From Eledone cirrhosa (lineage: Eukaryota), in NCBI GenBank assembly GCA_964016885.1, contig OZ024741.1, positions 253,642,001-253,706,000 on the forward strand: a DNA stretch of 64,000 bases, read 5' to 3'. Of the stretch, positions 25,154 through 33,130 are shown one piece after another. Position 1 is the first letter of the stretch. The number at the start of each line of letters is the position of its first letter. Made by a program: the position numbers and the translations under genes. The notes beneath the pieces were generated by a model. It worked only from the letters and a program-made list of their open reading frames with translations. It was not told the origin of the DNA and ran no database searches.

Positions 25154-25610
25154 AAGGGAACCATCTTCAGAAGGCTCTTCTCACTCGGAGAATATAAAAT
25201 TCCCGAGTTCAAATCACAAACTGACGCCATACAAAACCATTCCCAGATGAGAGTGAATGATAAAAGAAATAATTCTGTCTGGTGCCGTGTGCAAAGACAA
25301 AAGGCAGGGTGGACAGGTCAATGTCCTGCCACTAGAAATAGCAGCAGTCCAAACGGCCAAATTTTATCTCTACCTTAGGGGTGAGTAATAATAATAAAGT
25401 ATGAATTCCTATGTGTAAAAAATACATTCTAGTGGCAGGACATTGACCTGTCCACCCTGCCTTTTGTCTTTGCACACGGCACCAGACATAATTATTTCTT
25501 TTATCATTTACTCTCATCTGGGAGTTGTTTTGAATGGCGTCAGTTTGTGATTTGAACTCAGGAATTTTATATTCTCCGAGTGAGAAGAGTCTTCTGAAGA
25601 TGGTTCCCTT
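25154..25610. repeat. Fold-back inverted repeat with 184-bp arms and an 89-bp spacer (Penelope-like pLTR inversion candidate)
   Basis: 25154-25337 is the reverse complement of 25427-25610 with only a few mismatches. The two ORFs 25067(+) and 25332(-) share the peptide KGTIFRRLFSLGEYKIPEF. Confidence 0.93.
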
Positions 25611-25658
25611 CTCAATGGAAGTCACGTTTATTCTGGAACTTGAAACCGCGGTAAAGGC
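25589..25658 (+). ncRNA. Type I hammerhead ribozyme (minimal, palindromic helix III)
   Basis: Helix I GTCTT/AAGGC; core CTGAAGA (25594-25600); helix II GGTTCC/GGAACT; GAAA (25642-45); helix III palindrome ACCGCGGT; cleavage triplet GUA (cut after 25653). Confidence 0.8.
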
Positions 25659-26037
25659 ACATATAGTAAGTACAGCGAATTTTTTAAAATTTATTTTAAA
25701 ACATTTTCTCTATTTGCTAGACCTTGATTTTATATATATATATATATATATATATATTTCGTGGCAACATGACCCTCCCAAAGTATAACAATATATATAT
25801 ATATATATATATATGTGTGTGTGTGTGTGTGTGTGTGTGTGTGTGTGTGTGTGTGTGTGTGTGTGTGTGTGTGTGTGTGTGTGTGTGTGTGTGTGTGTGT
25901 GTGTGTGTGTGTGTGTGTGTGTGTGTAAAAGGTAAACAGAAATAACAAGGAGTACAGTATATGGAAGGAATATATTAGGTTAACGCTATATATATCAAGG
26001 GCGGGTAAAATTCCCGAGATCCATGGACGAGTTCTCT

Positions 26038-26415
26038 CTAGCGGTCTCTGTCCCTCATTATCACTGCCATGTCCTGTGTCTCCAACAGACCAGTGTCTGT
26101 CCTTAGGGCATCAACATACGTTAACCTTGGTCTTCCTCTTCCAGTGTGTCCATGCAGGGGCTCCCACAGGAGCACTGAGTGCAGTGTCAACTCTGGATGT
26201 CGGTGAGCATGTCCAGCGAACCCCAGTCTCCTCTGTGTCACTTTTGAGTTGACTTTTGGGAGGCTCCCATACAGCTCTGAGTTTTTCATCCTCAGTGTAT
26301 ACTGATTAATGTTCAGAGCCATCCTCAGTATTCTCGTGTAGCACCCATCCACCATCTGAGTGAGTTTCTTGGTCAGTGTCCAAGTCTCAGACCCGTTCAG
26401 CAACACAAACTCCAC
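26038..26415 (-). mobile_element. RTE/RTE-X LINE 3' ORF fragment
   Basis: LLNGSETWTLTKK..DGCYTRILRMALNI...FAGHAHRH...LLWEP..GRGRPRLTYVDAL is the typical RTE C-terminal region. Confidence 0.8.
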
Positions 26416-26743
26416 TACAACAATGAATATATGCTGTATATATATTTATCACATGTATATGTGTTTGTAATATATATTTGCTAAGTGTATTTATGACGTG
26501 TTTATACGAGCCTTTTTAAATATATACACCATATCCAAGTATGTCATAAGAAGCAACTAAAAAGCAGGCAACATGAAGAACACCCACCTATAAAACATTG
26601 TCATACAACTTCCTGTCCAACCTATGACAGTATGAAAAAGGGAATATAAAAACCATGAGGGTGATGCTGGTATATGTATACATATATATATATGTTATAA
26701 AGATTTAGGACCCGATGGCTGAGCTCTTGCCATCAGGTCCCAA

Positions 26744-27540
26744 CCGCTTTCGGTTATTTGTCGAAAATTTCTTCATAGGAGCCTTTATTCTTATAGCCTG
26801 GTCTAATTGATTTTTTATATGGTTAATTATGCTAATATTGAGAGAGGAAATGGTATATATTTTATCTAATAATTCTAAGGGCATGATTTATTATATATTG
26901 CTCTGATTATTTAATTTATTAATTCTTCATTGAGCCACAACGTGACCGGTTACCACGTATATATCTATGACTTTATGTATATGTAAATCTTTATATTTAA
27001 TAATCTCCCGTTAGGTTGAGATACAATTGGGCGATATTGGGCTGCGCTTTCTAGCAACAAGCCTACCCGCCGTAAGCAACTAATCACATTCTTTCTAACT
27101 TGACCACTGCCACGTCACGATTCTTAGCCATTTTTAAATCTATTTTTGGAAAATTAAATGTCCAATCTTGAGTTTTCTCCTGATGAGTCCGAAACTTTGG
27201 ATATATCCTGATAATTGGATGTCTAAAAATACGGACGAAACCATGGTAGAGATATAATTACGGTATGTACACGTTTCTTCTAAGTTTGAATTTACACCTA
27301 ATTGTGTATGGTTGACGGTATATTTAGTCAGTTTCTACATGCTGTTGAAATGTTGGATAAATACTCTATTGGGGCCACCGCGAAGAGGCCGCTTTCGGTT
27401 ATTTGTCGAAAATTTCTTCATAGGAGCCTTTATTCTTATAGCCTGGTCTAATTGATTTTTTATATGGTTAATTATGCTAATTGGGAGAGGAAATAGTATA
27501 TATTTTATCTAATAATTCTAAGGACATGATTTATGATATA
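26744..27540 (+). mobile_element. Partial tandem (645-bp period) of a hammerhead-bearing Penelope-like/retrozyme-like unit ending at (TA)n
   Basis: ~150-bp direct repeats start at 26744 and 27389 (CCGCTTTCGGTTATTTGTCGAAAATTTC...). A hammerhead lies between them and a (TA)n tract follows the second copy. Confidence 0.7.
27176..27252 (+). ncRNA. Type I hammerhead ribozyme with extended helix II
   Basis: Helix I TCTC/GAGA; CTGATGA (27180-86); helix II GTCCG/CGGAC extended by TTTGGATAT(A)TCC/GGATGTCTAAA; GAAA (27237-40); helix III palindrome ACCATGGT; GUA (cut after 27248). Confidence 0.85.
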
Positions 27541-28233
27541 TATATATATATATATATATATATATATATATATATATATATATATATATAGATATAGATA
27601 TAGATATAGATATGTATATTTATATATATATACATATACAAACAAGTGGAAGCTTAGTAAAATCGAAGCTTTGGCTGTGGCGAAGCAAAGCCGACCTTAA
27701 TAAGGAATGAGTAGCAAAGCACTCAATAAGGGAAGGTCCTTAGAGTAATAACATTACGTTTAAAAGCTTGACAAATTGAAAATTGCGGTAGGCAAAAAAC
27801 AACGAAAGAACTAATCAGGTAAAATAACAGACCTGGACATGTCGAATGATATTCTGCAATACGTCTGATATGTTTCTATGAATTCGAAATCATCCATCCA
27901 ACTTACGTAACACGTAAGCTTGTGGTATTCGATGATCGAACAGGGGATTCACTTCATCAACAGGGATTCCGTTCTTTTTGCCTCAAACCGGTGTGAACAT
28001 TAACTAAATGCAACTGCCAACATATATATATATACACACACACACACACACACACACACACACACACACACACACACACACACACACACACACACACACA
28101 CACACACACACACACACACACACACACACACACATATATATATATATATAAATAGATAGATAGATAGATAGATAGATAGATAGATAGATAGATAGATAAA
28201 TAGATAAATAGATAGATAGATAGATAGATAGAT

Positions 28234-31928: not shown

Positions 31929-32049
31929 CTACAGCTGAGTAAACTGGAGCAATGTGAAATAAAGTTTTTCGCTCAAGGAAACAACACATCACCCGGTCTG
32001 AGAATTGAACTCACAACCAATGCTCTAACCACTAAGCCATGTGCCTCCA
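31929..32049 (-). mobile_element. tRNA-derived SINE 5' portion
   Basis: Minus strand A box TGGCTTAGTGG, B-box-like GAGTTCAATTC, then a TCCTTGAGC..ACTTTATTTCAC.TTGCTCC core. Confidence 0.7.
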
Positions 32050-32202
32050 TATATATATATATATATATATATATATATATATATATATATATATATATAT
32101 ATATACACATACATATATATATATAACGAAGGAAATGTGGTAAGGAACCAGGTAGACCATAACGCACCAAAGTACTCAATACTTAGGGTAGTAGAGTGGG
32201 TA

Positions 32203-32489
32203 ATAGGAACGAGTAGGACCCCGACGGCTGAGCTCAAGCCGTTTCGACGGCTAATTCTATATTTACCCCATATTGTTTTACTTATTGTTTCGACTCCCCC
32301 TCCCCCAGTATACTTCCTTGGCACTATCAACGCACGACTGGGTTTCCACCACCTGCTCTTTCTTCTTCTGGCAGGTTCAGCTACCCCTTCCTTCCACAAA
32401 TTGCCATGATAGAATTATGTGTCTCAACAACAAACTTTTGACCAATCCTTGTGAGCAGAATTAGCAGTCGGGGTCCTACTCGTTCCTAT
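32203..32489. mobile_element. Small element bounded by 27-bp inverted repeats (MITE-like or fold-back)
   Basis: ATAGGAACGAGTAGGACCCCGAC(G)GCT at 32203-32229 pairs with 32463-32489 (1 mismatch). The right end abuts (TA)n. Confidence 0.6.
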
Positions 32490-32669
32490 ATATATATATA
32501 TATATATATATATATATTTATATATATATACATATATATATATATATACATATATATATATATTTTTTTTTTTAAACGATCGACTTTCGTCAAATCGGAC
32601 CGAGGGAACAATGTTTCCGTTGATCTTTCCAATTGCTAATACTATCTATCGGTCGCAACTCCAGGTAGA

Positions 32670-32778
32670 AGGAGCAACGTGAAATAAAGTGTCTTACTCA
32701 AGGACATAACGCATCGCCTGGTCCAGGAATCGAACTCACAACCTTACGATTGCGAATCCAATTCTCTAACCACACGCC
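32670..32778 (-). mobile_element. tRNA-derived SINE 5' portion (second copy)
   Basis: Minus strand GTGGTTAGAG..GAGTTCGATTCC..GTCCTTGAGTAAGACACTTTATTTCACGTTGCTCC, homologous to 31929-32049. Confidence 0.7.
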
Positions 32779-33087
32779 TATATATATATATATATATATA
32801 TATATATATAAATTGAATAGAATGAAACGAAATTTCATTTCTCACTCTTAGTACGGCACTTACTTAAATGTAAGTATGTATGTATACGTACATACATATA
32901 TGTATACAGACGCACAGTAGCATGTATATATATACATACAGGCACACATATATATATGCACGTAACAGTTTACCGAACATTTATTATAATGCTCGGTTTG
33001 TTCGTTTGTAAACAAACAAACAGCCTGAATTACGCCGTACAGTGTTTAGGCAACCACGTCACCTTTTTGTTCAACACTGACACAGGA

Positions 33088-33130
33088 ACGATGTACTAGT
33101 TTCAAGCTTATTAGCTATCGTCAGCACCGT
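33088..33130 (-). ncRNA. Minimal type I hammerhead ribozyme (43 nt)
   Basis: Minus strand ACGGTG-CTGACGA-TAGCT aata AGCTT-GAAA-CTAG-TA-CATCGT: 6-bp helix I, helix III palindrome ACTAGT, GUA triplet. Confidence 0.78.

What the first reader, a model, noticed from the sequence alone, without database searches (positions are those of the whole stretch)
25589..33130. Seven hammerheads from at least four sequence families in 7.5 kb, with family-specific helix III palindromes
Seen: CUGANGA...GAAA cores with closable helices I and II at 25589, 27176, 29481, 29738(-), 29919, 30364(-) and 33088(-). Helix III is a self-complementary word: ACCGCGGT, ACCATGGT, ATATATAT (copy A has the G-U variant ATATGTGT) or ACTAGT. 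No PLE ORF is present nearby. Knowledge: such minimal hammerheads are reported from Penelope-like elements and metazoan retrozymes and cleave as dimers via the palindrome. Inference: octopus (TA)n fields host a diverse population of non-autonomous ribozyme elements, and the palindrome may act as a partner-recognition code. If the protocadherin first exon lies beyond 33 kb, the three minus-strand ribozymes would sit in its intron in the sense orientation.
Basis: partly seen in the sequence, partly recalled or inferred. Interest (0 to 1): 0.72.

Follow-up and report, generated by a model that had tools for sequence, protein, structure and literature searches.

The report
Pile-up of Penelope-type hammerhead repeats
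Seven self-cutting-RNA (hammerhead) motifs are really present in this octopus-like DNA, inside several many-copy repeats that are likely short non-coding passengers of Penelope-like jumping genes piled into TA-rich DNA; this is a known kind of element, and the cutting in pairs that their palindromes would allow is already described elsewhere and untested here.

Summary
All seven type I hammerhead motifs are at the stated places (7 hits; at most 1 in 1000 shuffles), each with a self-complementary helix III word. They are six insertions, not seven: 30363(-) is a local mirror copy of 29918. A decayed eighth (core 30735) and a truncated ninth (25170) were missed. The two stretches laid on public runs hold multi-copy families, also seen in other organisms' runs. 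The architecture is Penelope-like: an inverted truncated copy with a tail, partial tandems of 645 and 310 bp, 3' ends in (TA)n, no ORF. Palindromic helix III, dimer cleavage, many families per genome and a (TA)n-inserting octopus element with a hammerhead are all published. The words are not family-unique: ATATATAT is shared by two families, and ACCATGGT recurs in an unrelated family, so a 'partner code' is not supported beyond ordinary base pairing. Nothing ties the motifs to the protocadherin 22.6 kb away. Cleavage and expression were not testable. Earlier notes of this scan report the same kind of thing, including the code idea, on other pieces of this genome. New members of a known kind; low interest.

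The parts
25589..25658 (+). H1: type I hammerhead motif, word ACCGCGGT, U.U at base of helix II, helix I 5 bp
   Evidence: (TA)n begins 78 nt after the predicted cut
25427..25731 (+). H1 element arm: 184 nt shared with the inverted arm plus a 121-nt tail that carries most of the ribozyme, ending at (TA)n
25154..25337 (-). Inverted, truncated second arm of the H1 element (177 of 184 identical); holds a ninth CTGAAGA core at 25170 cut off inside helix II
27176..27252 (+). H2: most canonical motif (G10.1-C11.1, word ACCATGGT, long helix II)
   Evidence: Rfam RF00163 22.8 bits; fold z -2.65
26744..27541 (+). H2 element: 645-bp unit preceded by a 155-bp copy of its own 3' end (149 of 155 identical), ending in (TA)n; partial tandem
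   Evidence: multi-copy in runs
29480..29544 (+). H3: word ATATGTGT; the G at 29534 is private to this copy; 84% like H5 over 224 nt
29738..29790 (-). H4: word ATATATAT; sister family of H3/H5 (75% over the ribozyme only, other 3' flank); tail-to-tail with H3 about (TA)8
29918..29982 (+). H5: word ATATATAT, inside the 247-nt arm 29873-30119; long outer helix I predicted
30120..30225 (.). (TA)53, centre of the H5/H6 inverted duplication
30363..30427 (-). H6: exact mirror copy of H5 (arm 30226-30472), sharing H5's private letters; local duplicate or assembly fold-back, not a separate insertion
30706..30795 (+).
   Evidence: read by eye; fold z -2.73, 3 of 200 shuffles; fails both descriptors
30546..30931 (+). 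H8 element: 310-bp unit preceded by a 76-bp copy of its 3' end (71 of 76 identical), ending in (TA)n
33088..33130 (-). H7: word ACTAGT, U.U at base of helix II, long outer helix I predicted
561..3009 (-). Context only: protocadherin coding exon (ATG at 2981) with an acceptor-like site 28 nt above the ATG

Best explanation
The seven motifs are type I hammerhead folds carried by at least five multi-copy, non-coding repeat families, which are likely short non-autonomous derivatives of Penelope-like retroelements (pLTR fragments or retrozyme-type units) that inserted one by one into TA microsatellites. Likely mechanism: a PLE reverse transcriptase-endonuclease encoded elsewhere nicks (TA)n and copies the element RNA from a point 50-290 nt downstream of the ribozyme, leaving partial tandems, inverted truncated copies and tails (inferred from architecture and from PMC11167929). 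Helix III of a single motif is predicted to be unstable (+1.9 to +6.0 kcal/mol) while two copies of the word pair (-3 to -14 kcal/mol), so the active form would be a dimer between neighbouring units of a tandem transcript, cutting it to unit length (inferred; published for other animals). The copies here are single or 1.25-unit, some mutated, so most are probably inert passengers. Different words favour like-with-like pairing simply by base pairing; that is a by-product, not shown to be a selected code.
For: Motifs far above chance. Multi-copy: on 29200-30118, summed contig depth is 1e5-2e6 over the ribozyme bins against 195-313 at 29355-29416 in run X1, with matches in runs of organisms B and C; 2272 contigs of X1 and 48 of organism B lie on 27120-27533. 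Other copies run into (TA)n downstream of the ribozyme (loose ends behind 29591, 73 contigs; behind 29577, 5310 reads). PLE-type architecture: inverted truncated arm plus tail (H1), partial tandems (H2, H8), as described in PMC8557442. Structure kept while sequence changes: 2 of 3 base pairs at the foot of helix II change on both sides between H4 and H3/H5; an abundant relative reads G-C for A-U (29496/29523) and U-A for C-G (29500/29519) (linkage inferred from like read counts); the C.C mismatch after 3 bp recurs in all. H3's G at 29534 is A in 14665 of 14726 and 1412 of 1428 reads. No variant row falls in 27222-27256 among the 40 of 137 rows shown. Energies. Published octopus PLE with a 3' hammerhead and (TA)n preference (Hydra-1_Obim).
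Against: No family here was linked by sequence to a PLE ORF or a published PLE: 12 short window words searched in the PMC8557442 supplement gave no match in a ribozyme context, and no genome was available. No element has two full units, so retrozyme membership is open. H1's tail (121 nt) is longer than the 30-40 nt described. Nearness to (TA)n in the window is weak evidence alone: 50% of random positions lie within 290 nt of a downstream run. The covariation count on 3 distinct rows is not significant (53 of 500 shuffles). In free folding none of the 7 windows tested takes the active shape as its best fold. In the one PLE tested in vitro, ribozyme cleavage was protein-assisted and not needed for insertion.
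Confidence: 0.8

Rival explanations
1. The helix III word is a selected partner-recognition code that keeps each family's ribozyme from pairing with those of other families.
For: Four different words among five families; predicted like-pairs beat cross-pairs (-14.1 and -11.2 against -6.8 for H1:H2); the ACCATGGT block is the best-covered part of H2 among diverged copies.
Against: Any two different palindromes pair worse with each other than with themselves, so the energies are expected without selection. H4 and H3/H5 share a word; a sister family with other flanks shares H2's word (140 and 121 loose-ended reads in X18); 8 metagenome loci of an unrelated family use it; in a published table one word is shared by five Hydra families; H8's word is not palindromic.
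Confidence: 0.1
2. The minus-strand ribozymes have been co-opted to cut the protocadherin pre-mRNA and so regulate the gene.
For: An acceptor-like site above the ATG implies an upstream exon; 3 of 7 motifs are on the gene's strand.
Against: 26.8 kb from the ATG to the nearest minus-strand motif, across a LINE and about 9 kb of satellite; strands mixed; H6 fully paired to H5's antisense in a read-through fold (65 of 65 nt); H7 has no like partner; the three AG|GTRAG sites on the minus strand lie on the gene side of the cluster (not above chance); the families are genome-wide repeats.
Confidence: 0.04
3. The families are 3' ends of full-length autonomous PLEs, 5'-truncated at insertion, with no life of their own as non-autonomous RNAs.
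For: Published Hydra-clade PLEs carry the hammerhead about 30-200 nt from the 3' end, target (TA)n and often have U.U at the base of helix II, as H1 and H7 do; most PLE hammerheads in genomes are single and thought to be truncated PLEs.
Against: The 645-bp and 310-bp partial tandems hold whole units with no coding remnant; depth over the H5 family falls away near 29870, which suggests a short unit.
Confidence: 0.3
4. The cluster is partly an assembly artefact: the H5/H6 palindrome is a fold-back at (TA)53.
For: Arms identical over 247 nt and sharing four letters that nearly all other copies lack (29894, 29914, 30016, 30065).
Against: The arms end at the element's boundary and flanks on both sides differ; smaller TA-centred inversions occur nearby (31676-31719); a recent fold-back duplication in the genome gives the same picture. 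It would remove one motif only.
Confidence: 0.25

Closest known systems
Hammerheads of metazoan Penelope-like elements (Cervera and de la Pena 2014, PMC4209133; parts 1-2 of 4 and supplement passages read)
   Same: Type I core; palindromic 15.2-16.2 and loop 3 (in their consensus); many consensus families per genome; mostly single copies; pairs 100-700 bp apart on opposite strands; dimer model.
   Different: Their min-HHR has no loop 3 and an extra base before helix II; the words here are 6-8 nt, most lack G10.1-C11.1, and no PLE ORF was found beside them. 'Octopus' does not occur in the supplement file searched.
Hydra-clade PLEs, including Hydra-1_Obim of Octopus bimaculoides (Craig et al. 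2021, PMC8557442; passages and supplement parts 2, 52, 53 read)
   Same: Octopus; (TA)n insertion; hammerhead near the 3' end; family-to-family variation of the helix III word; U.U at the base of helix II in many rows; partial tandems, inverted truncated copies, tails.
   Different: Hydra words are mostly 9-10 nt inverted repeats with an odd or unpaired centre (ACCA-A-TGGT in Obim), as H8's may have been; the seven here are strict even palindromes; no sequence match found.
Animal non-LTR retrozymes (Cervera and de la Pena 2020, PMC7229834, passages and section 14; Li, Clavereau and Pollet 2026, bioRxiv 10.64898/2026.07.22.740005, abstract and results part 1 of 2)
   Same: Non-coding, low-GC units with a type I hammerhead; 1-2 bp helix III capped by a tetraloop, U.U at the base of helix II in axolotl Amex2; dimers cleave better; proposed to derive from PLE pLTRs; many copies are monomers.
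   Different: No element here has two whole units; no circular RNA could be looked for; H2's unit (645 bp) is above the 150-450 bp of the 2020 paper though inside the 51-972 bp of the 2026 preprint.
Poseidon PLE of Anolis (Frangieh et al. 2024, PMC11167929; parts 1-2 of 4 read)
   Same: AT-rich target, two internal RT start sites that leave a tail at one end.
   Different: Autonomous; its hammerhead overlaps the ORF start, is protein-assisted and is dispensable for insertion in vitro.

Membership tests
Type I hammerhead ribozyme | CUGANGA, GAAA and UH in that order with closable helices I and II | tested here: met
   7 of 7; H8 fails helix II
Type I hammerhead ribozyme | Rfam Hammerhead_1 gathering score | tested here: not met
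   best 22.8 bits against 34, 1 of 7 listed
Type I hammerhead ribozyme | Self-cleavage 3' of H17 | not testable with these tools
   needs a bench assay; no RNA holder listed
Minimal PLE hammerhead (min-HHR, PMC4209133) | No loop 3 (A-N-N-U only) and an unpaired base before G10.1 | tested here: not met
   words of 6-8 nt; G10.1-C11.1 in 1 of 7
Dimer-type hammerhead with palindromic helix III (PLE, amphibian retrozymes) | 1-2 bp helix III with self-complementary 15.1-16.1 word | tested here: met
   6 of 7 strict, 1 with G.U; hairpin unstable, homoduplex stable
Autonomous Penelope-like element | RT plus GIY-YIG ORF | tested here: not met
   0 of 78 frames
Penelope-like element derivative | Partial tandem (pLTR) or inverted truncated copy | tested here: met
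   H1 inverted, H2 and H8 partial tandem; not seen for H3, H4, H7
Penelope-like element derivative | 30-40 nt tail at one end | tested here: inconclusive
   H1 has a one-sided extension, but of 121 nt
Penelope-like element derivative | 3' end inserted in (TA)n | tested here: met
   other copies of the H3/H5 family run into (TA)n; in the window alone weak
Penelope-like element derivative | Sequence homology to the pLTR of a known PLE | tested here: inconclusive
   short-word searches of one supplement only, no match; no genome or repeat library available
Animal non-LTR retrozyme | Non-coding, low-GC unit with a type I hammerhead | tested here: met
Animal non-LTR retrozyme | Head-to-tail repeats of two or more units | tested here: inconclusive
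   at most about 1.25 units here (H2, H8); no clear tandem joint among the rows shown
Animal non-LTR retrozyme | Expressed as linear and circular unit-length RNA | not testable with these tools
   no RNA holder listed
Type-SGC/CSG/GCS (non-circularly permuted) hammerhead, PMC10085705 | Blocks S, G, C in a non-circular order | tested here: not met
   scan of all six orders in 22.5-34.3 kb gave only three type I hits at its thresholds; AT-rich cases would be missed

The most novel reading that the evidence does not exclude
Co-resident ribozyme repeat families in octopus are under selection to hold distinct helix III words, so that each cuts only its own transcripts, while families that share a word (the ATATATAT group) cross-activate one another; and because AUAUAUAU is complementary to the (UA)n tract that follows each insertion, read-through RNA would switch those ribozymes off. 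The evidence here does not exclude this, though word sharing argues against a strict code.
Probability: 0.1. Interest if true: 0.55.

Novelty: new member of a known kind. Interest (0 to 1): 0.22.

Why it matters
As it stands it adds octopus examples to a described class and shows how densely such elements can pile up (about nine motifs or remnants in 8 kb). Searches for hammerheads with octopus or cephalopod listed only PMC8557442 as a PLE study, so these families seem uncatalogued in the open library, but their traits are published. The set is a handy natural panel for one open test, homo- against hetero-dimer cleavage between families (search listed no such test; Lunse et al., PMC5785218, could not be read and may hold one). 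A real specificity code would matter to ribozyme and retroelement specialists; a protocadherin role would matter more but has no support.

Tried and rejected
No whole genome was held, so no genome-wide count or protocadherin enrichment test. No RNA holder listed among public runs; this says nothing on expression. Rfam: 1 weak hammerhead hit among 72 matches, nearly all the rest miRNA models on microsatellites. The repeat finder direct families were swamped by microsatellites. Pfam on 78 short frames: no PLE domain; translations upstream of each motif showed no recognisable coding remnant by eye. Permuted-hammerhead scan: none. The GAGCTC hairpins at 26700-26745 and 32200-32260 lack a CUGANGA block and were not counted. 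Look-ups of three window stretches among earlier findings gave nothing and a fourth only an unrelated bacterial hit; none near this place. The one inverted CCAAT pair with 20-nt spacing (6794) lies inside a repeat-derived palindrome also seen at 25762, so it was not taken as the protocadherin promoter. Donor-like sites are at chance level (2 seen, 2.2 expected). RAD-seq depth was not used as copy number: the peak at 29510-29633 starts at one place and probably reflects a restriction site in a family variant (inference). Only 40 of 230 and 40 of 137 variant rows were shown, so absence of a row is not proof of invariance. PMC5785218 not held; only its title was seen. One supplement file of PMC4209133 was not searched, and bioRxiv supplements are closed; either may list octopus families.
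Full report
Observation. One of 1000 composition-matched shuffles gave a single hit. A scored scan that tolerates mismatches returns the same seven. Rfam lists only H2, below its threshold. As a control in natural DNA, 10 of 119 metagenome matches to core plus GAAACCATGGTH closed both helices, 8 of them one real repeat family. The motifs are real.

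How many elements. H5 and H6 are the two arms of one inverted repeat around (TA)53, identical over 247 nt. H5 differs from nearly all other copies at 29894, 29914, 30016 and 30065 and H6 shares those letters, so H6 is a local duplicate (fold-back in the genome or in the assembly). H3 is an 84% relative of H5; H4 resembles them only over the ribozyme. That gives six insertions in five families with four words. Two more remnants were missed: a core at 25170 cut inside helix II, in an inverted arm of the H1 element, and H8 (core 30735), which fails the descriptors through a helix II mismatch but has a 4-bp inner helix I, a long outer helix (z -2.73) and sits in a 310-bp partial tandem; its word is not a palindrome.

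Host and context. The protocadherin exon at 561-2987(-) is 92% identical to an Octopus sinensis protein, so the host is an octopus or close kin (inference). Between it and the cluster lie a broken LINE (RVT_1) and satellites at 11.8-16.1 and 16.8-21.5 kb; 34278-64000 is one 12-bp satellite. No PLE coding frame was found in 22.5-34.3 kb.

Copy number and conservation. Two stretches were laid on public DNA runs. Over 29200-30118 the summed contig depth in run X1 is 1e5-2e6 on the ribozyme bins against 195-313 on the spacer at 29355-29416, with related contigs in organisms B and C (summed depth is not a copy number, and X1 may be the source sample). Other copies run into (TA)n after the ribozyme (73 contigs behind 29591; 5310 reads behind 29577). 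H3's G at 29534 is A in more than 98% of reads, so the 'G-U variant' is at least partly a private mutation. An abundant relative changes two helix II pairs on both sides (A-U to G-C, C-G to U-A; linkage inferred), and upstream loose ends restore the strand of the outer helix I that H3 has lost. H2's family is also multi-copy (2272 contigs in X1, 48 in organism B); coverage rises on the GAAACCATGGTA block, where reads with other flanks on both sides join, and none of the 40 of 137 rows shown falls in 27222-27256. Among the three distinct window rows of the ATATATAT group, 2 of 13 pairs change on both sides, which 53 of 500 shuffles match.

Architecture. H1 has an inverted truncated arm and a one-sided extension; H2 and H8 are whole units preceded by a copy of their own 3' end; every motif points towards a (TA)n run 53-288 nt away, though half of random positions do as well. 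Partial tandems, inverted truncated copies, tails and microsatellite targeting are the described marks of PLE insertions (PMC8557442, passages), and the tail has been traced to two internal RT start sites (PMC11167929).

Mechanism. Shown: motif, palindrome, repeats, multi-copy state. Predicted: helix III as a hairpin costs +1.9 to +6.0 kcal/mol, the like-pair duplex gains -14.1 (H1), -11.2 (H2), -4.8 (H7), -3.2 (H5), -2.2 (H3). Inferred from the literature: two motifs in a tandem transcript swap helix III strands and cut the RNA to unit length, and a PLE protein in trans copies it into (TA)n. These copies lack a like partner in tandem, apart from H3 and H5 438 nt apart on the plus strand, and H5 and H6 would be fully paired to each other in read-through RNA, so little activity is expected here. 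Against the simple model, the one PLE tested in vitro did not need cleavage for insertion.

The code idea. Cross-pairs are weaker than like-pairs, but that follows from base pairing. The words are not family-unique: H4 shares with H3/H5, a sister family shares H2's word, an unrelated family in 8 metagenome loci with no BLAST match to the window uses ACCATGGT, and the published Hydra table has words that differ between families and one word in five families.

The protocadherin idea. An acceptor-like ttcctacattgcAG 28 nt above the ATG implies a non-coding exon upstream, so the premise is possible. But the exon cannot be placed; minus-strand AG|GTRAG sites occur only at 21.8, 23.7 and 24.7 kb, at chance frequency; looser matches add 28.5, 30.5 kb and satellite sites. 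Strands are mixed and the families are genome-wide. No support.

What is known. PMC4209133 already lists the palindromic 15.2-16.2/loop 3, many families per genome, single copies and opposite-strand pairs 100-700 bp apart. PMC7229834 describes 1-2 bp helix III with tetraloop and U.U at helix II in axolotl retrozymes. PMC8557442 lists an octopus PLE with (TA)n preference and a 3' hammerhead. The 2026 preprint derives animal retrozymes from PLE pLTRs. The elements work like these; membership as dimer-type type I hammerheads is met on sequence, as PLE derivatives partly met, as retrozymes open, as min-HHRs or autonomous PLEs not met.

Verdict. Real, more than chance, and a new local sample of a known class. 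Interest 0.22.

Noticed in passing
window 30706-30795 (+) in 30546-30931: Probable eighth, decayed hammerhead with a long outer helix I and a non-palindromic 9-nt word, in a 310-bp partial tandem.
   Followed up: partly
window 26695-26745 and 32128-32489: Two related segments with a GAGCTC-loop hairpin (z -5.8 on the minus strand at 26700-26775); 32128-32489 is an asymmetric inverted repeat between TA runs whose minus strand reads GAAAC-helix-GUC like the 3' half of a hammerhead, with no CUGANGA block found.
   Followed up: partly
window 27370-27400: Diverged copies of the H2 family keep a CGCGAAG word while its flanks change (loose ends): a possible second structured motif downstream of the ribozyme.
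   Followed up: no
window 6711-6865, 25762-25790, 31676-31719, 33477-33565: Further short inverted repeats bounded or centred by (TA)n; the first has a one-sided tail and holds an inverted CCAAT pair 20 nt apart.
   Followed up: partly
window 7397-10854 (-): Broken non-LTR retrotransposon in several frames (RVT_1 hit) with a C-terminal restriction-like endonuclease motif by eye; R4/Dong-like is a recalled label.
   Followed up: no
window 26038-26445 (-), 28467-29162 (-), 31720-32050, 32660-32780: LINE coding fragments (zf-RVT hit at 28470-29162) and SINE-like fragments between the ribozyme elements.
   Followed up: no
window 24650-25050 (-): GA-rich stretch ending in AG|GTAAGT at 24729: a candidate non-coding exon of the protocadherin, just on the gene side of the cluster; not above chance.
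   Followed up: partly
window 29873 and 30472: The H5/H6 arm begins at GTATGT, a splice-donor-like word.
   Followed up: no
window 34278-64000, 11829-16140, 16805-21491: Long strand-skewed satellites of 12, 36 and 27 bp.
   Followed up: no
L029:1101-1136, L032, L050, L055, L080, L084, L092, L093: A family of type I hammerheads with the ACCATGGT word and C17 in a non-coding repeat of about 500 bp (40% GC) in metagenome contigs, unrelated to the window; probably host-animal DNA (inference).
   Followed up: partly
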